Below, in pieces: positions 4,867 through 30,356 of a stretch of DNA of 37,901 bases. The first letter of the stretch is position 1, and each line of letters starts with the position of its first letter. Source of the DNA: a virus. Lineage: Duplodnaviria > Caudoviricetes. Where the stretch lies: IMG/VR virus record IMGVR_UViG_3300038425_000145, positions 1-37,901 of that record; one strand, written 5' to 3'. The notes under the pieces were generated by a model, which ran no database searches, was not told where the DNA came from, and was given only the letters and a program-made list of their open reading frames with translations. The position numbers and the translations under genes are program-made.

Positions 4867-5049
4867 ATGAGTGACCAAGCCCACAGAATATCGGTGCCGA
4901 AGGCGTTAGCTATGGCAGGATTGGACGACATCACGGAGTGCGACGATAGCGTCGTGCCTGCGTGTTCTTCAGAAGGGTGTGAAGTCGAGCCAGACGGCAA
5001 GTGCGAACATGGGCTTCCGTCAGTCCTGCTCGTGGCTGGATTGATTTAG
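4867..5049 (+). CDS. Small Cys-rich phage protein
   Basis: VEPDGKCEHGLPS...GLI motif; 60 aa. Confidence 0.7.
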   Translation: MSDQAHRISVPKALAMAGLDDITECDDSVVPACSSEGCEVEPDGKCEHGLPSVLLVAGLI

Positions 5050-5053
5050 TTTT

Positions 5054-5068
5054 GTCCAGAAACTGGAC
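5054..5068. promoter_or_regulatory. Dispersed palindrome copy 2
   Basis: GTCCAGAAACTGGAC followed by GATACT, 10 nt before ATG 5079. Confidence 0.65.
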
Positions 5069-5078
5069 GATACTTCTT

Positions 5079-6254
5079 ATGCTTAAAGAATTAAACGAAA
5101 GCCAAATCGCGTTGCTAAAAGAGCAACGCGAAAAATGGATTAGTCTTGGTCTCGCAACAGGCGAAATAGGTGTTGAAGAAACACGTAGAATTTATAAAAG
5201 CCTATACAAAGCTTACTGGCACATGGAAGAAAAACGGCCTATTATTGTTTTAAGTTCTCCTTTAAGTTGTCATTTTGCACTAAATTTAGTTAGTTCACAA
5301 GTTGAGTCACAAGTTAGGTCACAAGTTAGGTCACAAGTTGAGTCACAAGTTAGGTCACAAGTTAGGTCACAAGTTAGGTCACAAGTTGAGTCACAAGTTT
5401 GGTCACAAGTTGGGTCACAAGTTTGGTCACAAGTTAGTTCACAAGTTAGGTCACAAGTTGAGTCACAAGTTGAGTCACAAGTTAGGTCACAAGTTAATTC
5501 ACAAGTTAGGTCACAAGTTAGGTCACAAGTTAGGTCACAAGTTGAGTCACAAGTTTGGTCACAAGTTAGTTCACAAGTTAGGTCACAAGTTGAGTCACAA
5601 GTTGAGTCACAAGTTGAGTCACAAGTTGAGTCACAAGTTGATTTTATTTGGCCTTACTTATCCGGCCAATTTTGGGCTGGTTATTTTTCTTGGATTGAAA
5701 CTTACGCGTTTTTAGGTGTAAAAAACTTACCAAACATAACCTCTTTGAAAGACACGGTAAAAACCTCAATTTACTACCCATTAAAAAATGTTGTTATTTG
5801 TGGTTCTCGTTTTACTGAAATATACAAAAACGAACAAGGCCAGTTACATAAAGACGGTAAAATGGCACTTGCTTATTCTGATGGTTGGGGTGTCTTTGCT
5901 CTTAATGGTGTGAGAATGAAACCAGAATATGTTTTAACACCTGCCAACCAAATAAATCCTATTGATGTCTTAAAAGAAGAAAACGCAGACCAACGACGGG
6001 AACTTATTCGCAAGGTTGGAATTGAGCGAATGATGCAGGCTTTACCGAAAAAGCTTTTGTCAAAACAGGATACCTACGAACTTTACAGTGTTAACCTCTC
6101 ATCCGAATGTCCCGATGCTCGTTACCTAAAAATGGTGAACCCATCCATCGGCTGTTTTCATCTCGAAGGCGTTGCACCAAAATGTTCAACTGTTGAACAA
6201 AGTCTCAACTGGCGAAACCAGAATAGATTTACTCACCCGTCAATACTAACATAA
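5079..6254 (+). CDS. DUF6745-like protein with internal SQVx tetrapeptide repeats
   Basis: ATG 5079 (MLKELNESQ). Repeat region is followed by LHKDGKMALAYSDGWGVFALNGV and ENADQRRELIRKVGIER, recognised as typical of this family. Confidence 0.8.
   Translation: MLKELNESQIALLKEQREKWISLGLATGEIGVEETRRIYKSLYKAYWHMEEKRPIIVLSSPLSCHFALNLVSSQVESQVRSQVRSQVESQVRSQVRSQVRSQVESQVWSQVGSQVWSQVSSQVRSQVESQVESQVRSQVNSQVRSQVRSQVRSQVESQVWSQVSSQVRSQVESQVESQVESQVESQVDFIWPYLSGQFWAGYFSWIETYAFLGVKNLPNITSLKDTVKTSIYYPLKNVVICGSRFTEIYKNEQGQLHKDGKMALAYSDGWGVFALNGVRMKPEYVLTPANQINPIDVLKEENADQRRELIRKVGIERMMQALPKKLLSKQDTYELYSVNLSSECPDARYLKMVNPSIGCFHLEGVAPKCSTVEQSLNWRNQNRFTHPSILT
5295..5642 (+). repeat. 29 x 12-bp coding tandem repeat (TCACAAGTT+NNN)
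   Basis: Invariant TCACAAGTT with a variable fourth codon (E, R, W, G, S, N, D). Confidence 0.97.
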
Positions 6255-15412: not shown

Positions 15413-16564
15413 ATGGAACAAGTCGAAGAAAAACCAATTATCACAAAGCCGCCGGATGTTGTCCTTACCGAGGAGCAACAAATCGCTATTGACAATATCG
15501 CAAAGTGGCTCGAAGACCCTTGTAAGCAGGAGTATAAACTTGGTGGCTATGCTGGCACAGGGAAGACCACCGTTATTAAAAGCGTTATTAAGAAACTCGA
15601 CGAAATCGACATAGCCGTGTCCGCTCTTACAGGTAAGGCGGTCAATGTTCTCCAGCGAAAGAGTGTCCACGCACAAACCTTGCACAGCCTTATTTATGAC
15701 TGTGAAATGCAAAACAAGAAACTTGTCTTTGTAAAGAAGCGCAAGCCTGACGTCAAGCGAGACTTAATCATCGTCGACGAAGCATCCATGATTTCGACAG
15801 AGCTTTACAACGACCTTAAATCTTTCGGGATAAAACTTCTTTTTGTGGGTGACCCTGGTCAGCTTGAACCTGTGGGAGACAACCCTAATCTTATGTTGTT
15901 TCCTGACTATATTTTGTCCAAGATTCACCGACAAGCCGAAAAGAGTCCTATTATTTACTGGGCTAATGAGATTCGACAAGGTCGAGGAATGAACTACGTT
16001 GGCGACGGAACAGACCTTGTCATTCGAGACAAGAATATCAAGACAAGTGACTTCTTTGCGGTTGACCAGTTAATTTGTGCGAAGAACAAAACTCGTGAGC
16101 ATATGAACAGTATGGTTCGTCGAGCAAAATATCTTGAGCCGAACACGCTCGTCCAAAACGAGAAAATCATTGTTCTTCGTAACAACATTCAAGAAGGCGT
16201 TTTCAACGGCATGATTTTGTTCGTCGATAAGATAATCAAAGAGGACGTCGTTGGCAAATACACCAAACATAAAGTTTGGATATGCGACTGCGTGGATGAG
16301 ATTGGAACGCCTTATGAAATCCCCATTTGGCAGGTTCCATTCTTAACGCCAGAGAAACTAGGCACAGGAAAAGATGTTTTTGTTCCGCGTGAAGTCGTTT
16401 ATTGCACTTATGGCTATGTAATAACTTGCCATAAAAGTCAGGGTTCTGAGTGGGACAAGCTAATCGTCTTTGACGAATGGATGCCACCACAGGTGTGGGA
16501 CATGAAACGTTGGCGATACACGGCCATCACTCGTGCAGCAAAGCAGTTAACTTATTGTATGTAA
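15413..16564 (+). CDS. SF1B helicase (RecD/Dda-like)
   Basis: GYAGTGKT, TGKA, IIVDEASM, VGDPGQL, IHRQA, TCHKSQGSEW, YTAITRA. Confidence 0.93.
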   Translation: MEQVEEKPIITKPPDVVLTEEQQIAIDNIAKWLEDPCKQEYKLGGYAGTGKTTVIKSVIKKLDEIDIAVSALTGKAVNVLQRKSVHAQTLHSLIYDCEMQNKKLVFVKKRKPDVKRDLIIVDEASMISTELYNDLKSFGIKLLFVGDPGQLEPVGDNPNLMLFPDYILSKIHRQAEKSPIIYWANEIRQGRGMNYVGDGTDLVIRDKNIKTSDFFAVDQLICAKNKTREHMNSMVRRAKYLEPNTLVQNEKIIVLRNNIQEGVFNGMILFVDKIIKEDVVGKYTKHKVWICDCVDEIGTPYEIPIWQVPFLTPEKLGTGKDVFVPREVVYCTYGYVITCHKSQGSEWDKLIVFDEWMPPQVWDMKRWRYTAITRAAKQLTYCM

Positions 16565-17898
16565 TGAAACTCAAACTCGACCAAATCAAAATTGGCCCAC
16601 GACAACGCATCGACCTCGGAGACATCTCCGAACTAGCCGACTCGATGTTCCGCCTTGGCCAAATCCACAACATTGGTGTCAATGAAAACAACCAACTTAT
16701 TTTTGGTCGTCGCCGCCTCGCTGCTGCACAACAACTTGGATGGACAGAAATTGAGGCGACGGTTAGAACGGGACTATCAATTGTGGACGAGCAAGAAATC
16801 GAACTCGAGGAGGATATTCGCCGCAAGTCGAGAACGTGGCAGGAAGAAGTCATCGCGGTGGCCAAGCTCTACGCGCTGAAAGCTCGCCAAGCACGCCTTA
16901 AAGGTGAAAAGTTCGGCGTGCGGGACTTCGCTAATGAATATCCCGGTATTGGAAAGTCGCTTGTGGCCGAATACATTTTCACAATGGCCGACGAGTTGCT
17001 CAAAATGCCTCGCGATGAGAAGCTGTGGGGTGCAGGGAACTATAATAACGCAATGCAAGTTCTTCGTGGACGAAGCGAGAACGAGACTTACGCGGAAATG
17101 CAGCGTCGTCAGCAGTTGTTGAAAGCGATGCCAGAGAAGTTTATTGAAGTCAAACCTTTAACGAGTGGCACAAGTATTGTCCAGAAACTGGACACAACGC
17201 CCAAGAAAATCGGCATGACGCATGTCTCGTTAAGGGAGCGTGCACAGCTTTACAACAAGGCCTTCGAGCATCTAGGTCCGCCAAATACGTCAATGTTTTA
17301 TGAATACAAAAATAACCGTGAATTCGTCGTGGGTGGATGGTTTGTTGGGGGTGGGAATATCTCCGACTTATATGGTTCCTACCAGACTGAGTATCTTAAA
17401 CGCATCGGGAGTCTCTTTCCAGACGCGGTCAAAGTCGTTCATTTATTTGTGGGCAGCCTTCCCCCGTCGCCGAACTATACTCGTGTAGGTTTGCCGCAAG
17501 GGGAATACAAACCCGATATTGAGTGCGACACTCACCACCTCTCGTCGAAGCTGCCGTTCAAAGCGGATGTTATCTATGCCGACCCGCCGTATTCGATAGA
17601 GGACTCCGAACACTACCAAAATAGCATGGTCAACCGCGAGCGCGTTGTAGCCGAGTGTGCCTTATGCCTTGAACCCGGTGGCTTTTTGGTTTGGTTGGAC
17701 CAAGCTTTACCGATATTTAGCAACAACGACCTTCAGCTTGTTGGCTTTATCAGTTACATCCGCTCAACGGGAAACCGCTTCCGCGTCGTTAGTCTATTCC
17801 GCAAACCAATTAAACCATGTCCTCCTACATCATCCAATCCCGCAAACAGCGACACCACCTTATCGAAGACTCCGGCATTGTCCGTTCCTGCACAATAG
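16564..17898 (+). CDS. ParB N-terminal domain + HTH + DNA amino-methyltransferase-like fusion
   Basis: GRRRLAA ParB motif, ELEEDIRRK, HTH-like VRDFANEYPGIGKSLVAEYI, then HLFVGS and YADPPY MTase motifs. ATG overlaps the helicase stop (TAATG). Confidence 0.85.
   Translation: MKLKLDQIKIGPRQRIDLGDISELADSMFRLGQIHNIGVNENNQLIFGRRRLAAAQQLGWTEIEATVRTGLSIVDEQEIELEEDIRRKSRTWQEEVIAVAKLYALKARQARLKGEKFGVRDFANEYPGIGKSLVAEYIFTMADELLKMPRDEKLWGAGNYNNAMQVLRGRSENETYAEMQRRQQLLKAMPEKFIEVKPLTSGTSIVQKLDTTPKKIGMTHVSLRERAQLYNKAFEHLGPPNTSMFYEYKNNREFVVGGWFVGGGNISDLYGSYQTEYLKRIGSLFPDAVKVVHLFVGSLPPSPNYTRVGLPQGEYKPDIECDTHHLSSKLPFKADVIYADPPYSIEDSEHYQNSMVNRERVVAECALCLEPGGFLVWLDQALPIFSNNDLQLVGFISYIRSTGNRFRVVSLFRKPIKPCPPTSSNPANSDTTLSKTPALSVPAQ
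17178..17194. promoter_or_regulatory. Dispersed palindrome copy 4 (inside the ParB-MTase linker)
   Basis: TGTCCAGAAACTGGACA preceded by AGTAT (ATACT on the minus strand). Confidence 0.6.
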
Positions 17899-18116
17899 AC
17901 TTGCTTGAGGGTCTCGCGTTCGATGTTGCTCGGTCTTTAATCGAACAGAAGGGGTGGACTCTTGTCCCGGAGATAGAGAATCCGGTCAATGTGTTCTCCT
18001 TCCGTGGTGACGAATACGAGCTTCACTGGAAGGACAACAAGATTGTCAGCATCATTAAGAACAACGAGGAAATTTCGTGGGCAGAGTTTCCGCAAGCGTT
18101 GAAAGGGCTTTTGTAA
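17817..18116 (+). CDS. Hypothetical protein
   Basis: 99 aa; stop overlaps the polymerase ATG. Confidence 0.7.
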   Translation: MSSYIIQSRKQRHHLIEDSGIVRSCTIDLLEGLAFDVARSLIEQKGWTLVPEIENPVNVFSFRGDEYELHWKDNKIVSIIKNNEEISWAEFPQALKGLL

Positions 18117-20902
18117 TGGTTCCTAACAAGTTTCCTTCCTACACCTCTGGCCTTCGCCTCGCACTTATCGGCGAAGCTCCCGGACGTGACGAGGTTCAAT
18201 TCGGCGCACCTTTTGTCGGCGCGTCGGGACGTTTTCTTGCTACCCTCTTGTCCCGTGCCGGCGTTCAAAAAGATGCTTGTTACCTTGGCAACGTCTCACA
18301 ATACCAACCACCAAATAACGACATAACCAAGTTCTTATGGCACGGCGACGAAATCCAACACGGCTTATATCAACTGACCCAAGACCTCGTGGCGTTCAAA
18401 CCAAACCTTGTAGTTCTCCTTTGCGACCTTGGCAACATTCCCTTAAAAGCGGCAAAGGACTGTGCGTCTCCGATGACGAAAAAGCATGCGTTCAGTGTTA
18501 CTAATTGGCGTGGTTCGTTATTTTTGGGTAACGAAGGGCCGTTCAAGGGAATGAAATGTATGGCAACATACCACCCTGCGTTTTGCCTGCGGGATTCTGG
18601 GTCAGCACCATTTCTTCAACTTGACTTACGAAAAGCTGTTCGAGAAGCAGCTAGTCCGCTACTTAATTTACCACAACGAAACTTTCTGATTAACCTATCA
18701 GAAGAAGAAATTATTTTTCGTTTTCGACAAATACGCAAAGACAAAATTTCGGTTGCTTTTGACATAGAAGGCTACGTTGATGCAATGACCTGTATCAGCT
18801 TTGCGACAAGTCCCCAAGAAGCTTTTATTTTGGACTGCGACAAAATGTCTCCTTTACTTTGGCAAGAAATGGCTTTCGTTTTGGAAGACCCCGAAGTCCC
18901 AAAAGTATTACAGAATGAACTTTACGATACCTTTGTTCTTCATTACTCTTATGGAATAAGAGTGCAGGGCAAGTCTAATGATATAATGATTAAACATTGG
19001 GGACTTTATAGCGAACTCGCAAAAGAAGATAAGACGATGTCGGATTCGGAGTCTGCCACAACAAAGAAAAAGACTCGTGGTAAGGGCGGCCTAAGTCTCG
19101 CTATTCAGGCTTCTCTTTATACGGATGAACCCTATTACAAATACGAACGCAAAATCGAAGATAAAGAAACTCATCATATTTACTGCTGTCGAGACTCAGC
19201 CGTAACCAAAGAATGTTGTCTTGCACAACAAGCAGCCTTTGATGGACTTAATGGATGGGACCAAGTTCGCACAGCAAAAGAAAGGGAACTAATTAAAGAG
19301 CATTACAAATTTAACATGGGAATGTTAAACGTAATGCTTTATATGGAACTTCGTGGAATTAAATATGACGTTAAGAGAGCGGCTACTCGGCGTCAAGATT
19401 TGCTTAAAGCATTACACGAAGCCCAAGCCAAATTAAACGTCATAACCGGCCACGGCTTTTCGTGGACGAAAGGAATTGATGAAATCAAGAACAAGGCACA
19501 AGAAGTTATGTGGACGAAAAAGGGAGACCGTCCTTACAAAGAACATATCGAATCAGTCAAGAGACTTGAAACGCTTATTAAAACGTCTAGCCCTAGCCTT
19601 GCCACAATAGGCGAAATCGAAGACCTCTGTGAAGTCTCGTTAAACGTAGATAGCGCAAAACAATTCCAACGATATTTATATGAAATACTCAAATTACCAG
19701 TGCAAATGTCCGACGTTAGGGGACAAGAACCACACGTTACAAGTGACTACGAAGCCTTGCTCAAGCTCTCCCGTTGGTGCCAACAAAACACGAAAACTGA
19801 AGCTTTTGCCATTGTCCAAAAAGCTATTGAAATACGTGCTCTCGGCACTAGAGCGCAAATGCTCGGTATCAGTGCAGACAAAGACGGACGAATCCGGTGC
19901 GGTTATAATCTTGTTGGCTCTAACACCGGACGAATTACATGCTATGAGTCCCCTACCGGGAGTGGTTACAATTTACAAACCATTCCAAACTACACCTCTA
20001 CGAAGGAAGCTCCGGGAAATGTTCTTGGAGATAGAGATTTATTTGTTGCAGACAACGATTGCTGGTTATTCCAATGCGACTTGTCTGGTGCCGACGGATG
20101 GACAGTGGCAGCGTATAGTGCAATGCTTGGCGACCCGAATATGCTGCTTGACTACAAAGCCGGTATCTCGCCGTTCAAAATCCTTACCTGTATGCTTCGT
20201 GGATGGAAAGTCCCCGACGACAGGCAAGAAATCGCGCAGCTTGTTAAGAAAATAGGTAAAGACGACTGGGACCGTTTTGCCTGTAAACGAGTCCAACACG
20301 GTGGTTCTTACCTTGAAGGCGGACTAACTATTAGTCGTAACATTCTCAAAGACTCCGAGGGAAAGCTCTACATGACTTCGACGGAGTGTGACGGACTCAA
20401 GAACTATTTCTTCACCCGTTACTGGGGCGTGCGTAAATGGCACGATTGGATAGCACGACGCTTGAAAGAGCGTCCTATTCTTGTCGCCGCCTCCGGCCAA
20501 GTCAGGCAATTCTTCGGACGGCCTGACGAGATATTAACCAAAGCGGTCGCGTTCGAGCCGCAGGCCAACACGACCTACGCCACGAATCTTGCGGCGTGGA
20601 GATTATGGAGTGATGATGAAAACAGGTATTCACAAACTAACACAAAAGGAGAAAGAATGGATTGCGTCGCTATCCCCAATACAACACGCACGTTGGCGGG
20701 GGTTTCTCTCCGAATCGAGCCTCTACACCAAGTCCATGACGCCCTCATTGGCCAATTCCGCAAGTCCGACACACATTGGGCTGTTCCTCGCGTGCGGAGC
20801 TACTTCGATAACCCACTGGTCATCGCGGGGCAGACTATTACCATTCCGTTTGAGGGGAATTTTGGAGTTAGTTGGGGTAATCTAAACGAAGGAAAGATAT
20901 GA
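18116..20902 (+). CDS. polA: Family A DNA polymerase with N-terminal family-4-like uracil-DNA glycosylase and 3'-5' exonuclease domains
   Basis: IGEAPG...PFVGASG and TYHPA (UDG); FDIEG and YCCRD (exonuclease); TGR, NLQTIP, DLSGAD, KRVQHGGSY, QVHDAL (PolA). Confidence 0.92.
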   Translation: MVPNKFPSYTSGLRLALIGEAPGRDEVQFGAPFVGASGRFLATLLSRAGVQKDACYLGNVSQYQPPNNDITKFLWHGDEIQHGLYQLTQDLVAFKPNLVVLLCDLGNIPLKAAKDCASPMTKKHAFSVTNWRGSLFLGNEGPFKGMKCMATYHPAFCLRDSGSAPFLQLDLRKAVREAASPLLNLPQRNFLINLSEEEIIFRFRQIRKDKISVAFDIEGYVDAMTCISFATSPQEAFILDCDKMSPLLWQEMAFVLEDPEVPKVLQNELYDTFVLHYSYGIRVQGKSNDIMIKHWGLYSELAKEDKTMSDSESATTKKKTRGKGGLSLAIQASLYTDEPYYKYERKIEDKETHHIYCCRDSAVTKECCLAQQAAFDGLNGWDQVRTAKERELIKEHYKFNMGMLNVMLYMELRGIKYDVKRAATRRQDLLKALHEAQAKLNVITGHGFSWTKGIDEIKNKAQEVMWTKKGDRPYKEHIESVKRLETLIKTSSPSLATIGEIEDLCEVSLNVDSAKQFQRYLYEILKLPVQMSDVRGQEPHVTSDYEALLKLSRWCQQNTKTEAFAIVQKAIEIRALGTRAQMLGISADKDGRIRCGYNLVGSNTGRITCYESPTGSGYNLQTIPNYTSTKEAPGNVLGDRDLFVADNDCWLFQCDLSGADGWTVAAYSAMLGDPNMLLDYKAGISPFKILTCMLRGWKVPDDRQEIAQLVKKIGKDDWDRFACKRVQHGGSYLEGGLTISRNILKDSEGKLYMTSTECDGLKNYFFTRYWGVRKWHDWIARRLKERPILVAASGQVRQFFGRPDEILTKAVAFEPQANTTYATNLAAWRLWSDDENRYSQTNTKGERMDCVAIPNTTRTLAGVSLRIEPLHQVHDALIGQFRKSDTHWAVPRVRSYFDNPLVIAGQTITIPFEGNFGVSWGNLNEGKI

Positions 20903-23627: not shown

Positions 23628-24200
23628 ATGAACCATCAAATTATACTACCAACAAAACGCAGTGTCAACTACTTAGTTAACTACGGAAAACTCACGGTCA
23701 AGAAAAACGGTTGGCTTGCCAACAAGCTAATTAGTTTTTTACTTTATCTAAAAATTGTTAAATGGAACATTTACGAAACAGAAACAATTACTACTATTTC
23801 AATTTGTGTAGATGATTACATTCGTTTTGTAAACAAGGAACGAAATAAAATCGGGCGTGATTATGGTAATCGAGACTTAATTTTAATTATGGGTCCCCGA
23901 CAATTTCAAGAAATCGTAAAGCAAGAAGTATTTGTGCCAATGGTTTTTACTTGGCCAGACAAAAACACCGCGTTAAATGTTTGCGGTTTAATCACATGTG
24001 TTCTTCCGTGGATTGACGGAGTGGTTTTGGTGCCACGAGAATACTGGCCGATTGATACAAAAATTGTGGAGAAGGTTGTTGCCATGACTCCCGAAATGGC
24101 AGATGACGAACGAAAGAAACAAGAAGGAATACGAGCAGCGAATATGTGGAATCGGTTTATGGGAAGAACGGTCACTGAAAGCTACGTGGATGAGGACTAA
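23628..24200 (+). CDS. Hypothetical protein
   Basis: 190 aa; last plus-strand gene of the block; VLPWIDGVVLVP motif. Confidence 0.75.
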   Translation: MNHQIILPTKRSVNYLVNYGKLTVKKNGWLANKLISFLLYLKIVKWNIYETETITTISICVDDYIRFVNKERNKIGRDYGNRDLILIMGPRQFQEIVKQEVFVPMVFTWPDKNTALNVCGLITCVLPWIDGVVLVPREYWPIDTKIVEKVVAMTPEMADDERKKQEGIRAANMWNRFMGRTVTESYVDED

Positions 24201-24451
24201 ACATACCCCGCAAACTTAAATCGCTTTGGTTGGTGCTCTTTACAATAAAGCTCCTGTCCCTTAAACAACTCCCTCAACGATATGAAAAAGTCATTTCTAC
24301 ACCCGCTTTTGAAGCAGCGCACCTTTATTCGGCGTGGCTGTTCCGGCTTGGGGGACGGCGAGGCTTCCAAAGTCTTTGACTCGCACAATGGGGTCGACTC
24401 CGGCGACAACGTGGTAGTTGACTTTGGCAAGAATTTCGTATCTATCTTCAT
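24197..24451 (-). CDS. Possible small zinc-binding protein
   Basis: CFKSGC...YCKEH; overlaps the end of the psd-like gene by 155 bp. Confidence 0.4.
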   Translation of the reverse strand: MKIDTKFLPKSTTTLSPESTPLCESKTLEASPSPKPEQPRRIKVRCFKSGCRNDFFISLRELFKGQELYCKEHQPKRFKFAGYV

Positions 24452-25085
24452 TGGGTTTAAGCGGTATAACTAAATCAACTTGACTACCAAAACGAACAAT
24501 CCCAAAGCGTTCTCCCTGACACTGATGCTCATAGCCCCAGTTGGCTATTTCATCCACATCCCGTTCTGCAACCTGAATCATATAGTATGAGGTCTTTATT
24601 CGAGGTGCATACATTCTGGTTATGCAACGCTCATTGGGAAAGAGGTAACCCATATCCTCTGGGTGTGAACCTTTCCCGTGCATCAAGTCCTCCTGCTCCA
24701 ACATCATTGAAAAATTATGCGTAAACAAATAAGGCGTCTTGTGGACCTCAGTCAAATAACCACTGGTCGGACACCGATTGACGTGGACGTCATATTCCGT
24801 CATGTAAATGCCGATGCAAAGAAACTCTCCGGCCAACTCTTTGTCATCGAGCAAATCACGGGGCGTGAATTTTCGACCTTTGACCACAACTATACTCTCG
24901 TCCGCTTTGACGCGGGGGTGAGCATACAAGATAACCCCGTCCGCCGGCGCAAGAAACAGTTCAGGGCGAATATAAACAGGTCGAAGCGGGTCACGAAAGA
25001 ACTCACGCCCGTAACGATTCCCGGCGTTGGTTTCTTTAATCCTGACTACTTCTGGACTCTTAATCCATTGAGCTAAAGGTAGCAT
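24297..25085 (-). CDS. psd: Phosphatidylserine decarboxylase-family pyruvoyl proenzyme
   Basis: FFRDP, APADG, DVHVNRCP, NER and GERFGIVRFGSQVDL (G|S autocleavage site); no N-terminal membrane anchor; true substrate uncertain. Confidence 0.88.
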   Translation of the reverse strand: MLPLAQWIKSPEVVRIKETNAGNRYGREFFRDPLRPVYIRPELFLAPADGVILYAHPRVKADESIVVVKGRKFTPRDLLDDKELAGEFLCIGIYMTEYDVHVNRCPTSGYLTEVHKTPYLFTHNFSMMLEQEDLMHGKGSHPEDMGYLFPNERCITRMYAPRIKTSYYMIQVAERDVDEIANWGYEHQCQGERFGIVRFGSQVDLVIPLKPNEDRYEILAKVNYHVVAGVDPIVRVKDFGSLAVPQAGTATPNKGALLQKRV

Positions 25086-25088
25086 AAT

Positions 25089-25346
25089 ATGAAAATAAAC
25101 ACTAAGGAAATCTGGTGGTGTAATTCACATCAAAGACAGGCAACCCATATAGATTGGAAACAGGGTAAGTGGGTATGTGACCCGAAACTCGGTGGAATTT
25201 TGTTACCGTGTGTTTGCATAAACATAACGGGAATTGCTAGAATATGTAATTCAAGTGACTCACAAAACACGAAAGCTTTGCTCCCGAAGCCTCGCACTCG
25301 CTCAAATCAAAATACGAAATCTCCTTTCCCAATTCATGACAAATAA
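25089..25346 (+). CDS. Small Cys-rich protein, antisense to the late operon
   Basis: WCNSHQRQAT...CDPKLGGILLPCVC; the Cys-rich part fills the gap between the two enzyme genes. Confidence 0.5.
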   Translation: MKINTKEIWWCNSHQRQATHIDWKQGKWVCDPKLGGILLPCVCINITGIARICNSSDSQNTKALLPKPRTRSNQNTKSPFPIHDK

Positions 25347-26175
25347 GCTCAAGACGTTCGTTTTTATTCTTCTGGTCATCGTAGCCCTCATCGCCTCGGC
25401 GCAAATACTGAAGATTGGACGAATTGTATATCGCGTTTTCCACTTTCAAGGAGTTACATATTCCCGCGTATGCGTCATTCTTACTTACTGGCCATACTGT
25501 TGCAACGCGCTCGACCGCGCGAACTTGTTCCCTCTCCATGATTTCAGAACACATCATAACATTATACTCATCCATCGGTAGAACCGAACAATCAAGATGG
25601 TAAAGAACCTCGTCAGTCTCTTTGATAGGAAGAATTTTACAACCAAAAGTTGACTCCAACCACTTATGCGCACGAATGTCCGACCTAAACCCATACCCTC
25701 CTATGTAGATATTGTCCCGCAAGTATTTCAACTCCGGCTCACCTTCAAAACGAAACGGGCACTTGACGACTTCATAACCAAGGTCTCGAAGGAGACCGGC
25801 GGCGACCCATTCTTCGCCATCGCGTCCTTCGGCAGTAAAGTTAGAAAGGACTATCACGTTACGATTCTTAAGGTGCGGCAGGTAGGCGAAGCAGTTGACA
25901 TACGTCTGGTCTTGAAGCCCTTTCATGGGGGTAAGAAGATAAGTCAAAGAGTTTGCCGCGAGACAGTTGTAAAGATTATACCACTGGGCAAGAAACTTCG
26001 GACGGTCAAGTTCATGCGTGGATAGTTCTTCCATTGTTTTGTTGTTCTTTATCTTAGTGTCCACAAAGGCCGGTGGACACATGACGAATACGGGATATGG
26101 GTATTCGCTCGGCGTTTTCGGCATCCACTTGGGACTCGAAAGCGCGTTTTGTTTTTGGGGTGCTTGTGTTGGCAT
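25237..26175 (-). CDS. Amidinotransferase/DDAH/arginine-dihydrolase (pentein) family enzyme
   Basis: MCPP, QW, GLQD, RDGEE, FEGE, GYGFRS, YHLD and C-terminal candidate catalytic Cys in SGAKLSC. Confidence 0.88.
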   Translation of the reverse strand: MPTQAPQKQNALSSPKWMPKTPSEYPYPVFVMCPPAFVDTKIKNNKTMEELSTHELDRPKFLAQWYNLYNCLAANSLTYLLTPMKGLQDQTYVNCFAYLPHLKNRNVIVLSNFTAEGRDGEEWVAAGLLRDLGYEVVKCPFRFEGEPELKYLRDNIYIGGYGFRSDIRAHKWLESTFGCKILPIKETDEVLYHLDCSVLPMDEYNVMMCSEIMEREQVRAVERVATVWPVSKNDAYAGICNSLKVENAIYNSSNLQYLRRGDEGYDDQKNKNERLELICHELGKEISYFDLSECEASGAKLSCFVSHLNYIF

Positions 26176-26177
26176 AA

Positions 26178-29100
26178 TTAAAATTGCTGACTAAATCCTC
26201 TTGCTTTCCGCATTGTCGGTGGCTTGAAGCCTCTCGGAGCTTTACTATCAATCTTCGCTTGTAGCTGACTGAAAAAGCTGTCGGCTATTTGCTTTTGTTG
26301 GGCAACGGCGTTGTCATACATCTTGCGCTGTTCTGGACTAAGCGACGCTTTGAACTTATCCTCGTTCTCTTTGTTCACAAAGCGGAAGTTCTCTAGCTTA
26401 CTGAACTCCTTCTGCAAGTCCATCTGTGCTTCGTGTTTAGCTTCGTCATCCGACAACGACGGATGCTGGTTGGCTTTCTCACTAAGTAACTGTTGGTATT
26501 GTTCCTTCGCTTTGTCCATATCGCCCACAAGTAACGCTTGCTTCAACGGCAAATACTCGCTAGGCGCGAAACTTGCCTCGTCGGTGCGAATGTTATTAGA
26601 CTGCTTCCACTGGGTTGCCCTATTTCGTATGATAGAAAACGGAGCCTGACTCGCTTGCACGCCAACCACCGAGCCGAGTCTTTGTCCAACCCTAGCCATA
26701 GGCGAGTTAGCTTGTTGGTTCTGCACAAGCGGGCCGACCAATGGATTAAGCTGTCCAAGCATCGCTTGAAAATACGGAGGCTTTTCTCCGGGTGTTCTTT
26801 GCTCGTAGCCAAGACCCCCTTCGGTTCTGCCAGTCAAGCCAACGGACAAAAGGTTAAGCGGTGGCCCACTGAAAGGTGCAACTGCTGTGCGGCCAATATC
26901 TTTCATCGCATCGTAGGCAGTTTGCCCAATAGAAGCTGGCTGCTCTCCCCGTATCCTCGGCATCACCTGTTCCCGCATAACAGCACCCACTCCCGACGCT
27001 CGTGCGCCGCGGTAGAGCATTGTCCACTTCCACATATTGATAACCTCGTAGCTGCCATCTTTGTTCTTGTGCAGAACGATATCCCCGAACTCGGTGCCTT
27101 CTGGCCGTGTCGAACCCGTGGTCATCTTGTTCACCGTTGCGGGAATAATCAACGCGGCAGTAGCGATACCCACCGCGATGGACAGGCGTAGGCGCAAAGC
27201 GTCCAGATTGCTCGCTGCCTTAACGCCTGGCGACATTGTCAAGTTTCCCACTGCCAACCGATTGAAGTTCCTCCCCGCAACATTGAACGAGCCAAGTCCT
27301 GTTTCCTGCATACCTTGTTGGAACCAAGTCATGAATCGCTTGTTATACTGACCGGCTCGCCCGTTGATATAGCGACGCCGCTCGGCAGGAATGTCCTTCA
27401 CCGTGCCATCTTTAACCAGACTATCAAACTCGCGGTTGAGAACTACGCGAGTCACCGTGTCCGCAATCTTCAACGCATGACTACTCCACCCGCCAAGAGA
27501 CTCGCCACGAAAAGTCACACCTGCTTCGGCTGCCTTCGCGAGTTCTTCTTGAATTTCTGGACTATTAGAGACGATGTCGTGTTGAGCTTTGGCGACTTGT
27601 AACGCTTTTAACGGCAACGCCAACAACCCCTTTGGGCTATTCGCAACAGCGACCATATCGTTGAAGGTGTGAAACCCAAGGTCAATGCCAAGGCCAACTT
27701 GCGTCTTGATAATCGCCTGACTCGCCACGTGCAACGCAGGCGCACCCTCTTTCAACGCTTCTTTCCAACTTGTATTAAGCTGCAAGGCTTGTTTCAATGT
27801 CGGCGAAATCCGCTTATCGAACGCAAGCCAACGAGACACATTAACATTCTCCCCGTCCTGAATCAATGAACGAAGCGTCACGGGATTCTGCTGTCGAATC
27901 ATACCAGCGGGAGTCTCGTCACCGGGTTTAAGCAACTTGAGAAGTCCCGCTTTCTCGCCTTCGCTATAAACGTCTCGCAATGCCGCCTGCTGCGCGTTCT
28001 TTGTCAGCATTCTAAACGCCATGTTGCCAGCGTCTAGGTTATATTCCTCACCAGTGAACTTGCGCTCCTTGCTAAACGCCGAGCCACGCTTCATTGTTGC
28101 GAGTGGGCCGACCGTTGAAGGCGCGTTCTCGACTTGCTCGATTTTGTCGTCCCTCAGTATCGCTATCAAGTTCGCAAACGCCCCCGTCTGCTGGCCGGAC
28201 TCGGCCAACGAGCCACCGAGCTTTTCGTGCATTTCGGTTGCCAGCGGTTGTATATGTTGCTTCCACGCCGCTAACGCTTTCTGAAACTCCGGGTTCTTCA
28301 ACGCCGCTTGGTATTGTTGCTCGTTCGCAAAGGGACTGTTCTTAAGCTTGAATACTGGGTTACCAATACCGCCCGATGCACGCCGCATATCCTCGTAGAT
28401 AAGGCCGCCAAGCTGCTTACGGAACTGTTCGTTATTAGCTTTGTCACCAAGAACCTTTGTGATATTTGCGTGTGCGCGTAGCACGCTTGCGACCTGGCTA
28501 TTTGCATACTTCGCCACCATGTTGGCAAACCCCGGATTCAACGCCTCAATCTTCGGCAAGTCATATCCCTGTCTTTTCAACATCCATGATTTGAACATGT
28601 GCTGGTCGGTCACGGCATCGAAGATTTGACTACCGAAGGCTTTCAGGCTGTCGAGTTTGGCATGGGCGTCCTCAACGAGTTTGGGAGTGCCTTCTGTTGC
28701 CCCAGTCTCCTTCACTGCCTTCGACACAGGAGACTCTGGAAACAACGCTCCGCTCTCCGGCCCAGTCCTGTCCAGTTTCTGGACAGCACCTTTAACCACA
28801 TTCCCCTCACTCGTAGGCGCAAATTGAATCCTTTTCGTCAGTCTCCCTTCAAGCTCGTTCTTCGCGGCGATGAGATTCACGAACTTATCATGCGCTGCTT
28901 TTTGACTCACGGGGTCCTGCGACACCTTATCTGGGTGCGACTGATTAAGAAGATTTTTGAACACCATTTGCAAGACACGACGCTTCTCCATTAGCTGCCC
29001 TTGTGTCAGCTTCGCAAAGGGCACACTTCCAACCTTGGGGTTAATACCAAGCTGTTGAAACAACGCTTCGGTCTTGACTTTTTTAATGCTTGGGCCGTAA

Positions 29101-30356
29101 GAACCAAGCTTGTTGACGCCCTTAACCACGGTTGACGGAGCAAGAGGATTAGACGTTACTCCCCCACCGCCTTGCACATTGCGGCTGACATCTGCTCGTG
29201 CAACTCCAGACTGTCCTCCGGGTATTTTTTCTTGAGGTGCGCTTTGAATCGGGACTTGCGGGGCGAGTCCTTTTTGTTGCTGTGCTTGCCCTTCAACGAC
29301 TTGTGGGCTTCCTGTCCCAACTGCTGCTGGCTTATTTTCACTTGCTTCCTTTTGTAGTTGTGCAACGCGACCAAGAAAAGCCTGGTGCAGTTGCGGGTTT
29401 TGTCGACTAATCTGCGATAAAAATTGGTTCTCGGCGGGGGACAGCCTGCCGGCTGTTGGGTCGGCAACCTTCTTTGCAAGGTTCTCGATGACGGGATTTA
29501 GCGTCTGTGGCTGAACAACCGGCTCTTTCGCTGCTTGCTGCACAGGACCCAACGTCCCACCTTGGTTTGAAGGAACTACAGTAGCCACAGCCGGTTTTGA
29601 AGCCAACTTGGATTTGGGAACAGATGTTGCATCAACAGAAGAAACGACGGGAGCTGTCGCGGCTTTTGGGGGTGGGACTGGGGCTACTGAAGACTGTTTT
29701 GGCTGTTGCTCTTTAACAAAATTCGCACGTGCGTTTAGTTCGTCAAGAGTTAACTCTCTTTGCGGCTGTAACTTCATCCACTCGGAAATAGCAGGATTGT
29801 CCGCGTTACCGTAACCAAGGTCATAACCTTTCTTGGCCGCGATACCCGCAATAATCGACAACGGAAGAACCGAGGCTTCCGTTCTTTCTGGTAATGATGC
29901 TCCCGAACCCGGAGATAAAACCCCGGCTGACTGTGCTAATGGCGCAACTACGCCACCAGCAAGCCCCGTGCCATAAGCCAGTCTCCCTGCACTACCAAGT
30001 GTCGGCAACGTCGGCCCAAACTCAGGCGGCACACCAACCGCCATTAACGCCAAGCTACCGGGAGTTGCTAAAGAGTTAACAAGGTTTTGGCCGCCAGCAA
30101 CGAGACCTTGAACAGGCGTCTGTGGGTTTTGATTAACATTTGAAAAGACTGGATTCTTAGAGCTAAACAAAGCATCCATCATTGGCTGATAATTAGAGCC
30201 AAGAATACGTTCTCCAAGAGAAGGCTTGTAAGCAGAGATTCCCGTTGCATGACCAAGGCCCGGAAAACTGGCTGGTGTTGATGCTATTTCGTCAAATATG
30301 TCTCCCTTCGGAGTAACACTATTCGACGGCGCAATTTGGTCGAATATATCAGGCAT
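26178..30356 (-). CDS. Large internal virion/ejection protein with a J-domain-like segment
   Basis: 1392 aa; DIFDQI/DIFDEI N-terminal repeats; last of a series of ejection-like genes; SHPDK motif. Confidence 0.7.
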   Translation of the reverse strand: MPDIFDQIAPSNSVTPKGDIFDEIASTPASFPGLGHATGISAYKPSLGERILGSNYQPMMDALFSSKNPVFSNVNQNPQTPVQGLVAGGQNLVNSLATPGSLALMAVGVPPEFGPTLPTLGSAGRLAYGTGLAGGVVAPLAQSAGVLSPGSGASLPERTEASVLPLSIIAGIAAKKGYDLGYGNADNPAISEWMKLQPQRELTLDELNARANFVKEQQPKQSSVAPVPPPKAATAPVVSSVDATSVPKSKLASKPAVATVVPSNQGGTLGPVQQAAKEPVVQPQTLNPVIENLAKKVADPTAGRLSPAENQFLSQISRQNPQLHQAFLGRVAQLQKEASENKPAAVGTGSPQVVEGQAQQQKGLAPQVPIQSAPQEKIPGGQSGVARADVSRNVQGGGGVTSNPLAPSTVVKGVNKLGSYGPSIKKVKTEALFQQLGINPKVGSVPFAKLTQGQLMEKRRVLQMVFKNLLNQSHPDKVSQDPVSQKAAHDKFVNLIAAKNELEGRLTKRIQFAPTSEGNVVKGAVQKLDRTGPESGALFPESPVSKAVKETGATEGTPKLVEDAHAKLDSLKAFGSQIFDAVTDQHMFKSWMLKRQGYDLPKIEALNPGFANMVAKYANSQVASVLRAHANITKVLGDKANNEQFRKQLGGLIYEDMRRASGGIGNPVFKLKNSPFANEQQYQAALKNPEFQKALAAWKQHIQPLATEMHEKLGGSLAESGQQTGAFANLIAILRDDKIEQVENAPSTVGPLATMKRGSAFSKERKFTGEEYNLDAGNMAFRMLTKNAQQAALRDVYSEGEKAGLLKLLKPGDETPAGMIRQQNPVTLRSLIQDGENVNVSRWLAFDKRISPTLKQALQLNTSWKEALKEGAPALHVASQAIIKTQVGLGIDLGFHTFNDMVAVANSPKGLLALPLKALQVAKAQHDIVSNSPEIQEELAKAAEAGVTFRGESLGGWSSHALKIADTVTRVVLNREFDSLVKDGTVKDIPAERRRYINGRAGQYNKRFMTWFQQGMQETGLGSFNVAGRNFNRLAVGNLTMSPGVKAASNLDALRLRLSIAVGIATAALIIPATVNKMTTGSTRPEGTEFGDIVLHKNKDGSYEVINMWKWTMLYRGARASGVGAVMREQVMPRIRGEQPASIGQTAYDAMKDIGRTAVAPFSGPPLNLLSVGLTGRTEGGLGYEQRTPGEKPPYFQAMLGQLNPLVGPLVQNQQANSPMARVGQRLGSVVGVQASQAPFSIIRNRATQWKQSNNIRTDEASFAPSEYLPLKQALLVGDMDKAKEQYQQLLSEKANQHPSLSDDEAKHEAQMDLQKEFSKLENFRFVNKENEDKFKASLSPEQRKMYDNAVAQQKQIADSFFSQLQAKIDSKAPRGFKPPTMRKARGFSQQF
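28769..28785. promoter_or_regulatory. Dispersed palindrome copy 6
   Basis: TGTCCAGTTTCTGGACA, the exact reverse complement of the copy at 17178. Confidence 0.6.

What the first reader, a model, noticed from the sequence alone, without database searches (positions are those of the whole stretch)
24297..26175. Late-operon cassette: guanidino-group enzyme plus anchorless PSD-family decarboxylase, a possible new phage amine/polyamine or modification pathway
Seen: two co-oriented enzyme genes follow the largest virion gene by only 2 nt. The first has pentein-fold motifs (MCPP, FEGE, GYGFRS, YHLD, terminal Cys) closest in pattern to ArgZ-type arginine dihydrolase/DDAH, but with substitutions (FEGEPE for FEGAGD; GAKLSC for GGAAKC). 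The second has the intact PSD Asp-His-Ser set (APADG, DVH, FGS) but no hydrophobic N-terminal anchor. Established: pentein enzymes hydrolyse or transfer amidino groups, and the PSD fold can be repurposed for soluble amino acids (fungal PsiD). Inference: the pair is a two-step pathway. One option is Arg to ornithine/citrulline to a diamine that neutralises packaged DNA. Another is phosphoserine to phosphoethanolamine to a guanidinoethyl group on lipid, protein or DNA.
Basis: partly seen in the sequence, partly recalled or inferred. Interest (0 to 1): 0.82.

Follow-up and report, generated by a model that had tools for sequence, protein, structure and literature searches.

The report
Phage arginine-to-polyguanidine enzyme pair
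At the end of its putative virion genes this phage carries two enzymes that travel together through many phages and bacteria and also sit at the two ends of a bleomycin gene cluster; they likely turn arginine into agmatine and possibly chain it into short guanidine polycations, which would help pack the phage DNA.

Summary
Observation confirmed: a 312-aa ArgZ-like pentein and a 262-aa PSD-fold pyruvoyl decarboxylase, both with intact catalytic sets. The pair is a conserved module: 146 of 153 viral loci (some contigs twice) and 74 of 80 genome loci hold both; 58 of the 80 add an exporter. The scan found this pair before on other DNA (four notes, read as Arg to putrescine). New here: (1) both genes sit at the ends of a bleomycin cluster, the decarboxylase directly before the first NRPS gene; (2) an acidic patch replaces the basic patch of lipid PSDs; (3) agmatine-deiminase-like and amidinotransferase neighbours; (4) one pentein fused to an AdoMetDC-like domain. 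Bleomycin B2 ends in agmatine and B4/B6 in agmatine oligomers (recalled). Best reading (0.4): the decarboxylase makes agmatine, and the pentein transfers an arginine-derived amidine onto it, giving oligo(butylguanidine) polycations. Rivals: Arg-ornithine-putrescine (0.25), Arg-agmatine-putrescine (0.15). Lipid or DNA modification is unlikely; the window lacks every GATC and GTAC. No activity was measured; ten paper searches found no description.

The parts
25237..26175 (-). ArgZ-like pentein (guanidino-modifying enzyme), 312 aa; Cys303-His193-Glu144, Asp89, Asn45, Asn94, Arg118, Arg164, Asp195 intact; family-only invariant Asn44, Glu146, Lys150, Cys196, Ser302
   Evidence: phrog_12759; pLDDT 92.7
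24297..25085 (-). PSD-fold pyruvoyl decarboxylase proenzyme, 262 aa; Asp49/Asp99-His101-Ser201, predicted cleavage at Gly200-Ser201; acidic patch at 174-179; no hydrophobic N-terminal segment
   Evidence: phrog_12670; pLDDT 90.6
26178..30356 (-). 1392-aa protein directly upstream, putative internal (ejected) virion protein; context, not part of the module
   Evidence: no Pfam/NCBIfam family (7, 8); atlas nearest clusters viral, LPD38/LPD3 as weak leads (86); head-closure hit further upstream E 8e-4 (9)
25089..25346 (+). small antisense ORF (85 aa; conserved part about residues 4-52) inserted between the two enzyme genes; WWCNSHQR...CDPKLGG family
   Evidence: four phage homologues at 54-65% identity; absent from L004 and L157
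24197..24451 (-). small Cys/His-rich ORF (84 aa) overlapping the PSD tail, last ORF of the leftward block
   Evidence: homologue at the same place in L157; no Pfam hit

Best explanation
The two genes form a conserved module that likely makes arginine-derived guanidine polycations: the PSD-fold enzyme is predicted to decarboxylate arginine to agmatine, and the pentein would join further arginine units onto that amine, giving short oligo(butylguanidine) chains that the phage would pack with its DNA. Shown: folds, intact catalytic residues, linkage, neighbours, position in a bleomycin cluster. Inferred steps: (1) self-cleavage at Gly200-Ser201 gives the pyruvoyl group; (2) Arg to agmatine + CO2; (3) the pentein binds Arg by its alpha-amino and carboxylate groups, Cys303 attacks, one NH3 leaves as in ArgZ; (4) the ornithyl-isothiouronium is captured by the primary amine of agmatine instead of water, giving N-omega-(4-guanidinobutyl)arginine; (5) the decarboxylase removes its carboxyl, giving the dimer amine, which can be extended again; (6) bacteria export the product through the linked MATE or ABC exporter, phages have no exporter and keep it for DNA condensation.
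For: Bleomycin link: genome G103 holds a bleomycin cluster (BlmA 120 of 121 residues identical to PDB 1jie; BlmB 686 bits over cut-off 625). Its PSD homologue (40% identical to the window's) follows the ArsR and SulP genes and ends 40 nt before the first NRPS gene; its pentein homologue (38%, all 20 listed key residues identical) starts 35 nt after blmB and runs into the module's ABC exporter. PMC7017467 (passages) names orf28, the gene after blmR-blmT, as first gene of operon II, so the PSD homologue is orf28 by position; GenBank already notes the Campylobacter phage PSD as similar to AF210249_12. Bleomycin B2 ends in agmatine, B4 and B6 in agmatine dimers and trimers linked through disubstituted guanidines, and the putrescine congener is minor (all recalled, not from a call). 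Five other genomes with BlmB-like genes lack both genes, a sixth lacks the PSD family, and in G003 the pairs lie on other contigs than tlmB. Cationic substrate: net charge -2 to -4 at 173-179 in 159 of 164 family PSDs against AGLVARR in two controls; a PSD-fold arginine decarboxylase exists (Ao-ADC1: Z 10.3; PMC12904898 section 5). Arg as pentein substrate: Arg118, Arg164 and Asp89 kept in at least 160 of 163 sequences, the positions that hold carboxylate and amine in ADI/DDAH (PMC11659421 section 9; mapping through ArgZ, ArgZ-to-DDAH equivalence recalled). Exporter in 58 of 80 genome loci, none in viral loci. Neighbours that act on guanidines: agmatine-deiminase-like gene in 14 of 153 viral and 10 of 80 genome loci, including all four nearest rows to the window's PSD in the quick tree, without N-carbamoylputrescine amidase in 5 of 5 phage records and none over the cut-off in 5 of 5 bacterial genomes (best hits beside a dihydropyrimidinase); amidinotransferase in 3 loci, two of them with an extra PLP ornithine/arginine-type decarboxylase. 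Phage position: after gp23 in 77 of 106 non-identical loci, near terminase, portal or head-closure genes in others.
Against: No activity was measured, and I know of no natural pentein whose main reaction is this transfer. The family keeps the ArgZ residues Asn45 and Asn94 (ArgZ Asn22, Asn71), recalled as the dihydrolase determinants, and ArgZ is by far the nearest structure. It keeps Asp195, where DDAH has Lys to make room for a substituted guanidine (PMC11659421 section 9). B4/B6 are minor congeners and could be side products of a hydrolase; their structures are recalled only. The bleomycin link rests on one genome (2 of 401 Streptomyces genomes had the PSD family) and the cluster may simply have landed inside the operon. 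Most loci lack the guanidino-acting neighbours. The SpeE-like neighbour (3 loci) is degenerate and says little. In NCTC12673 and DAC16 the genes lie among replication genes. Nothing shows the product inside virions.
Confidence: 0.4

Rival explanations
1. Two-step putrescine route: the pentein is an arginine dihydrolase (Arg to ornithine + 2 NH3 + CO2) and the PSD-fold enzyme an ornithine decarboxylase; putrescine serves DNA packing in phages and is exported in bacteria.
For: All ArgZ catalytic and substrate residues kept; ArgZ nearest fold; acidic patch fits ornithine too; PotD-like and ArgB-like neighbours in 5 and 6 loci; one pentein fused to an AdoMetDC-like domain, a fold that phages have turned into ODC or ADC (PMC9992855, passages); L162 pairs the PSD with an amidinotransferase, which yields ornithine.
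Against: Co-transcription with bleomycin NRPS genes should then favour the putrescine congener, yet A2 and B2 dominate (PMC7017467; amine identities recalled); agmatine-deiminase-like neighbours have no role; a PLP decarboxylase of the ornithine type sits beside the pair in two loci; ATP-driven export in 24 loci is costly for putrescine.
Confidence: 0.25
2. Agmatine route to putrescine: the PSD-fold enzyme is an arginine decarboxylase and the pentein hydrolyses agmatine or N-carbamoylputrescine to putrescine, replacing agmatinase or AguB.
For: Agmatine-deiminase-like neighbours without AguB; Ao-ADC1 precedent; agmatine in bleomycin B2 (recalled).
Against: Both carboxylate-binding arginines are kept, also in loci with the deiminase (15 of 15); agmatine deiminases are the most distant penteins structurally (Z 20-21).
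Confidence: 0.15
3. Another guanidino-containing small molecule or a modification of protein or glycan, made from Arg or from another cationic amino acid such as S-methylmethionine.
For: Some loci lie among glycosyltransferase, aminotransferase or NRPS genes; the major bleomycin A2 ends in a decarboxylated methionine derivative (recalled).
Against: No third enzyme is shared across loci; phages need only the pair.
Confidence: 0.15
4. Lipid or DNA modification: phosphatidylserine or phosphoserine decarboxylation followed by amidino transfer onto lipid or DNA, or a part in the deoxyinosine genomes of Fletcherviruses.
For: PSD fold; three N-terminal helices could still be amphipathic; all but one of the 39 Campylobacter phage records with one gene also have the other.
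Against: Charge reversal of the lipid-PSD patch; no linked pssA; separate PSD in 4 of 5 hosts; Asn94 instead of the Asp of amidinotransferases (recalled equivalence); GATC 0 of 85 expected, GTAC 0 of 71, 6-base palindromes at 0.35 of expectation in the window; bacterial copies sit with exporters.
Confidence: 0.05

Closest known systems
ArgZ (Synechocystis Sll1336) / AgrE (Anabaena Alr4995) arginine dihydrolase domain, PDB 6JUY-6JV1, 6LRF-6LRH
   Same: Fold (Z 34, rmsd 1.8 A), Cys-His-Glu triad, Asn22, Asp65, Asn71, Arg90, Arg139, Tyr167, Asp170 equivalents
   Different: 24-26% identity; 80 bits against a cut-off of 450; stand-alone, no cyclodeaminase fusion; invariant Asn44, Glu146, Lys150, Cys196, Ser302 where ArgZ has Ile, Ala, Leu, Thr, Lys; always partnered with a pyruvoyl decarboxylase
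PRK05305-type / archaeal phosphatidylserine decarboxylases and E. coli PSD (7CNW, 6L06)
   Same: FFRDP, APADG, DVHVNR and RFGS motifs; D90/D142-H144-S254 equivalents
   Different: Below every NCBIfam cut-off; N-terminal hydrophobic segment deleted; acidic instead of basic patch; about 20-residue insertion; no pssA partner
Ao-ADC1 arginine decarboxylase of Aspergillus oryzae (9JER, 9JF5) and PsiD tryptophan decarboxylase (8X4Q)
   Same: PSD fold used on a free amino acid with a pyruvoyl cofactor (Z 10.3 and 10.4)
   Different: 12-15% identity, larger fungal proteins, a separate lineage; precedent only
Viral polyamine pathways (PMC9992855): AdoMetDC-derived pyruvoyl ADC/ODC of phages; chlorovirus ADC-AIH-NCPAH-HSS
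   Same: Virus-encoded arginine-to-amine metabolism with a repurposed pyruvoyl decarboxylase
   Different: That paper has no occurrence of 'dihydrolase' or 'phosphatidylserine' and reports no arginase in phages and no AIH outside chloroviruses
Bleomycin cluster orf28 and the pentein gene behind blmB
   Same: Orthologous-looking members of both families (40% and 38% identity) with the same key residues and the same ABC exporter family
   Different: Split by about 60 kb of NRPS/PKS genes; I found no assigned function in the one paper on the cluster that I could read

Membership tests
Pentein (guanidino-modifying) superfamily | alpha/beta propeller with Cys-His-Glu/Asp triad | tested here: met
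ArgZ/AgrE arginine dihydrolase (NF052232) | score above curated cut-off 450 | tested here: not met
   80.3 bits
ArgZ/AgrE arginine dihydrolase (NF052232) | Asn22 and Asn71 equivalents | tested here: met
   Asn45, Asn94; (their role is recalled; the two ArgZ papers were not held)
ArgZ/AgrE arginine dihydrolase (NF052232) | two arginines and an aspartate for the alpha-carboxylate and alpha-amine | tested here: met
   Arg118, Arg164, Asp89; PMC11659421 section 9
ArgZ/AgrE arginine dihydrolase (NF052232) | Arg to ornithine + 2 NH3 + CO2 | not testable with these tools
   needs an assay
DDAH | Lys in place of the Asp after the catalytic His | tested here: not met
   Asp195 in 162 of 163 sequences; PMC11659421 section 9
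Agmatine deiminase (PF04371) | profile match; no carboxylate-binding arginines | tested here: not met
   no PF04371 hit; arginines kept
L-arginine amidinotransferases (AGAT, StrB1, SxtG, HsvA) | closest fold and Asp at the Asn94 position | tested here: not met
   Z 22-24 against 34 for ArgZ; Asn94 (equivalence recalled)
PSD fold (PF02666) | profile above cut-off; Asp-His-Ser autocleavage set at a Gly-Ser bond | tested here: met
   92 bits; Asp49, Asp99, His101, Gly200-Ser201 (PMC7952604 passages)
Phosphatidylserine decarboxylase proper (PRK05305 type) | equivalog cut-off | tested here: not met
   best 74.5 bits against 183; control L248 scores 409 against 315
Phosphatidylserine decarboxylase proper (PRK05305 type) | hydrophobic N-terminal segment, basic AGLVARR patch, linked pssA | tested here: not met
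   (0 of 161 above KD 1.6)
Phosphatidylserine decarboxylase proper (PRK05305 type) | membrane binding and activity on PS | not testable with these tools
   amphipathic binding cannot be excluded from sequence
Ao-ADC1 / PsiD clade | sequence-level membership | tested here: inconclusive
   no profile hit in PDB; structural match only, Z about 10; no tree with these rows was built

The most novel reading that the evidence does not exclude
A two-enzyme oligoguanidine synthase: a pentein that works as an ornithyl-amidine transferase plus a PSD-fold arginine decarboxylase iteratively build agmatine oligomers, a natural counterpart of synthetic polyguanidines. Phages from podovirus-like to T4-like would pack them as a DNA-condensing polycation, bacteria of many phyla would export them, and the same genes would explain the agmatine and oligo-agmatine tails of bleomycins B2, B4 and B6.
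Probability: 0.35. Interest if true: 0.92.

Novelty: new variant of a known kind. Interest (0 to 1): 0.75.

Why it matters
The module is widespread (212 clusters at 50% identity with E below 1e-30 for the pentein profile, a count that includes ArgZ-type relatives) and is annotated as PSD plus DDAH or amidinotransferase, so viral 'psd' genes counted as lipid AMGs (PMC11360552, passages) may partly be this enzyme. Under any of the top three readings it is an undescribed arginine-to-amine route with two new enzyme activities, present in culturable phages (Fletcherviruses, Bacteroides DAC phages). Under the best reading it adds a new natural polycation class and a new pentein reaction. It also makes the origin of the bleomycin B-series terminal amines directly testable with two named genes.

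Tried and rejected
Link to Fletchervirus deoxyinosine or agmatidine-type DNA: searches and the text of PMC13091555 (no occurrence of the six terms) gave nothing; bacterial context and palindrome avoidance argue against. SAM decarboxylase role for the PSD: raised by the SpeE-like neighbour in genomes without an AdoMetDC match (2 of 3), dropped because that SpeE lacks the GGG-x-G and acidic SAM-binding motifs and occurs in 3 of 80 loci. A general tie to bleomycin-family clusters: not found. Plasmids: only one lipid-type PSD with pssA. No PSD-pentein fusion among the 14 long proteins checked from the best 150 representatives. No whole genome is held for the window; no RNA holder was listed. The first all-against-all clustering timed out and was redone on subsets (39, 45). 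In one search the label ARGB marked an acyl-CoA ligase cluster by my mistake; the counts used come. Contig de-duplication failed, so 146 of 153 counts loci, not contigs. The tree is the quick tree; the careful search did not finish. The papers on ArgZ, AgrE and on the bleomycin cluster boundaries and comparisons were not held; they, and supplements I did not open, may bear on residue roles and on any function already proposed for orf28. No complex prediction was run, since binding is not claimed.
Full report
Observation. The window is a phage genome fragment with a rightward replication block (exonuclease, Sak4-like, helicase, PolA, ligase, primase) and a leftward block that ends in a 1392-aa ORF, the 312-aa ORF at 26175..25237 and the 262-aa ORF at 25085..24297. 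Close homologues lie on contigs of 45-48 kb and L004 is rated 59% complete at 27.9 kb, so the window is probably about four fifths of the genome. The quoted motifs and the 2-nt gap are real. The 151 nt between the two genes hold a small antisense ORF of a phage family; in L004 and L157 the genes abut.

The pentein. NCBIfam ranks arginine dihydrolase first but far under its cut-off (80 against 450). The AlphaFold model (pLDDT 92.7) matches ArgZ/AgrE at Z 34, rmsd 1.8 A, ahead of AstB 27, DDAH 26.6, ADI 25, amidinotransferases 22-24 and agmatine deiminases 20-21. Through the alignment, Asn45, Asp89, Asn94, Arg118, Glu144, Arg164, His193, Asp195 and Cys303 correspond to ArgZ Asn22, Asp65, Asn71, Arg90, Glu118, Arg139, His168, Asp170 and Cys264; each is kept in nearly all of 163 locus sequences. 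PMC11659421 (section 9 and passages read) states that in ADI and DDAH two arginines hold the carboxylate and an aspartate the amine, and that DDAH has Lys where ADI has the guanidino-binding Asp. So the substrate most likely is an alpha-amino acid with a guanidine, i.e. arginine. The family also has invariant residues that ArgZ lacks (Asn44, Glu146, Lys150, Cys196, Ser302), all next in sequence to catalytic residues.

The decarboxylase. PF02666 scores 92 bits, every PSD equivalog stays under its cut-off. Asp49, Asp99, His101 and Gly200-Ser201 match E. coli D90/D142-H144-S254 (PMC7952604, passages). The model (pLDDT 90.6) matches E. coli PSD (Z 12.0), PsiD (10.4) and the Aspergillus arginine decarboxylase (10.3), with unrelated EIIA domains at the same level. 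Against PRK05305-type controls from the same host genomes, the family has lost the hydrophobic segment (0 of 161 above KD 1.6; controls 1.83 and 1.13, and 0.21 for an E. coli-type control) and has an acidic patch (net -2 to -4 in 159 of 164) where two controls read AGLVARR. Controls sit beside pssA; a pssA-like ORF occurs in 1 of 237 family loci, 7 kb away. Four of five host genomes hold another, higher-scoring PSD. A cationic soluble substrate is the simplest reading.

Linkage. Among annotated phages 44 of 47 records with the pentein also have the PSD and 44 of 45 the reverse: 38 Campylobacter records, about 42 kb apart in NCTC12673, and 6 Bacteroides phages, adjacent. In IMG/VR I fetched the best 80 of 152 and the best 80 of 232 confirmed loci; 146 of the 153 distinct loci (some contigs twice) hold both genes, 132 within 10 nt, and the 7 others end within 1.9 kb on the partner's side. 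Of the best 80 of 184 genome loci, 74 have the pentein next to the PSD, 68 in the order PSD-pentein, and 58 have an exporter downstream (34 MATE, 24 ABC); viral loci have none. Distances of the two proteins correlate (rho 0.906, 81 pairs, shuffled maximum 0.22), which shared ancestry also produces. In phages the pair follows gp23 in 77 of 106 non-identical loci, and lies by terminase, portal, head-closure or very large ORFs in other lineages, but among replication genes in DAC16 and NCTC12673.

Neighbours. Agmatine-deiminase-like genes occur in 14 viral and 10 genome loci; the four rows nearest the window's PSD in the quick tree all have one, the window does not, nor do three of the other four records beside L004, while DAC16 has one elsewhere. 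No nitrilase was found in 5 of 5 such phage records, two of them complete, and no AguB over the cut-off in 5 of 5 such bacteria. Three loci carry an amidinotransferase, two with a PLP decarboxylase of the Orn/Arg family. ArgB-like genes occur in 6 loci, PotD-like in 5, a degenerate SpeE in 3. One family pentein is fused to an AdoMetDC-like domain, a fold that phages have turned into arginine or ornithine decarboxylases (PMC9992855, passages), which ties the pentein to a basic-amino-acid decarboxylase independently of the PSD fold.

Bleomycin cluster. A GenBank note led me to search 401 Streptomyces genomes; 2 had the PSD family. In G103 the gene follows ArsR and SulP genes and ends 40 nt before an NRPS gene; about 60 kb on, behind blmA and blmB, come the pentein and the module's ABC exporter, all on one strand. 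PMC7017467 (passages) describes blmR-blmT as operon I, with BlmT a sulfate transporter, and orf28 as the first gene of operon II, and names A2 and B2 as the products. By position the PSD homologue is orf28. Both homologues keep the window's key residues. Other BlmB-like genomes and the tlmB contig lack the pair. From memory, not from a call: B2 ends in agmatine, B4 and B6 in agmatine dimer and trimer joined through disubstituted guanidines, the putrescine congener is minor, and DDAH's covalent intermediate can be diverted to amines in vitro.

Mechanism. Taking these together, I rank first a route in which the decarboxylase makes agmatine and the pentein, after releasing one ammonia from arginine, hands the ornithyl-amidine to agmatine; decarboxylation then gives the dimer amine and allows another round (0.4). 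It accounts for the carboxylate site, the exporter, the guanidino-acting neighbours, the extra PLP decarboxylase and the B-series tails. Against it stand the lack of any assay or natural precedent known to me, the retained dihydrolase asparagines and Asp195, and dependence on one cluster and on recalled chemistry. Arg-ornithine-putrescine (0.25) is the plain homology reading and the one earlier notes of this scan chose (I had reached it before reading them); Arg-agmatine-putrescine gets 0.15, other products 0.15, lipid or DNA modification 0.05. The window's complete lack of GATC and GTAC and its low palindrome content suggest its DNA is not shielded by a hypermodification. Packing of the product with DNA is inferred from gene position only.

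Literature. Ten full-text searches found no description of the pair; most subscription papers are outside that library. Read: PMC13091555 (term search, no hits), PMC12904898 (passages, first part of section 5), PMC9992855 (passages), PMC11659421 (passages, section 9), PMC11360552 (passages), PMC7017467 (passages), PMC5983701 (passages), PMC7952604 (passages). Both proteins fall in PHROGs of unknown function. Look-ups of earlier scan notes by words for the agmatine-deiminase and bleomycin links returned none.

Verdict. A real, conserved, undescribed two-enzyme arginine module, seen before by this scan on other DNA, with a new lead that changes the likely product. New variant of a known kind (viral polyamine metabolism); categorically new if the oligoguanidine reading holds. 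Interest 0.75.

Noticed in passing
window 23668..23640, minus strand: Perfect 12/12 sigma-70 promoter (TTGACA-17-TATAAT) inside the start of a plus-strand ORF, pointing antisense towards the primase gene.
   Followed up: no
whole window: No GATC (85 expected) and no GTAC (71 expected); six-base palindromes at 0.35 of expectation.
   Followed up: partly
window 28797-29096 (-), within the 1392-aa ORF: J-domain-like stretch with an HPD motif; Pfam DnaJ E 0.022, below cut-off.
   Followed up: partly
window 18077-20902 (+): Family A DNA polymerase with an N-terminal uracil-DNA-glycosylase family 4 domain.
   Followed up: no
window 16477-17898 (+): ParB-like domain fused to a DNA-methyltransferase-like domain (phrog_3816).
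   Followed up: no
window 5001-6254 (+): Protein with a long SQV(E/R/W) four-residue repeat before a DUF6745 domain.
   Followed up: no
P0329 and P0363: Pentein of this family fused behind an AdoMetDC-like domain (atlas 0.88, 10 of 10 hits PF02675; BLAST E 1e-4 to an AdoMetDC); single-contig sequences; the domain of P0363 looks degenerate.
   Followed up: partly
P0289, P0304, P0308, P0312, P0343: Family penteins split by 320-390-residue insertions at conserved motifs that look like inteins (read by eye); P0289 has two.
   Followed up: no
P0249, P0286: Family penteins with extra domains that resemble modules of phage head proteins (recalled resemblance only).
   Followed up: no
L005-L009, L051, L087, L122, L146; L257 (DAC16): Agmatine-deiminase-like genes in phages; PMC9992855 reported none outside chloroviruses.
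   Followed up: partly
L001:15913-16887: GMP-reductase/IMPDH-domain gene and two dUTPase-fold genes near the pair in Bacteroides phage DAC16.
   Followed up: no
L157, L158, L186, L194, L202: Contigs in bacterial or archaeal MAGs that look like phage DNA; L157 is a close relative of the window's phage.
   Followed up: partly
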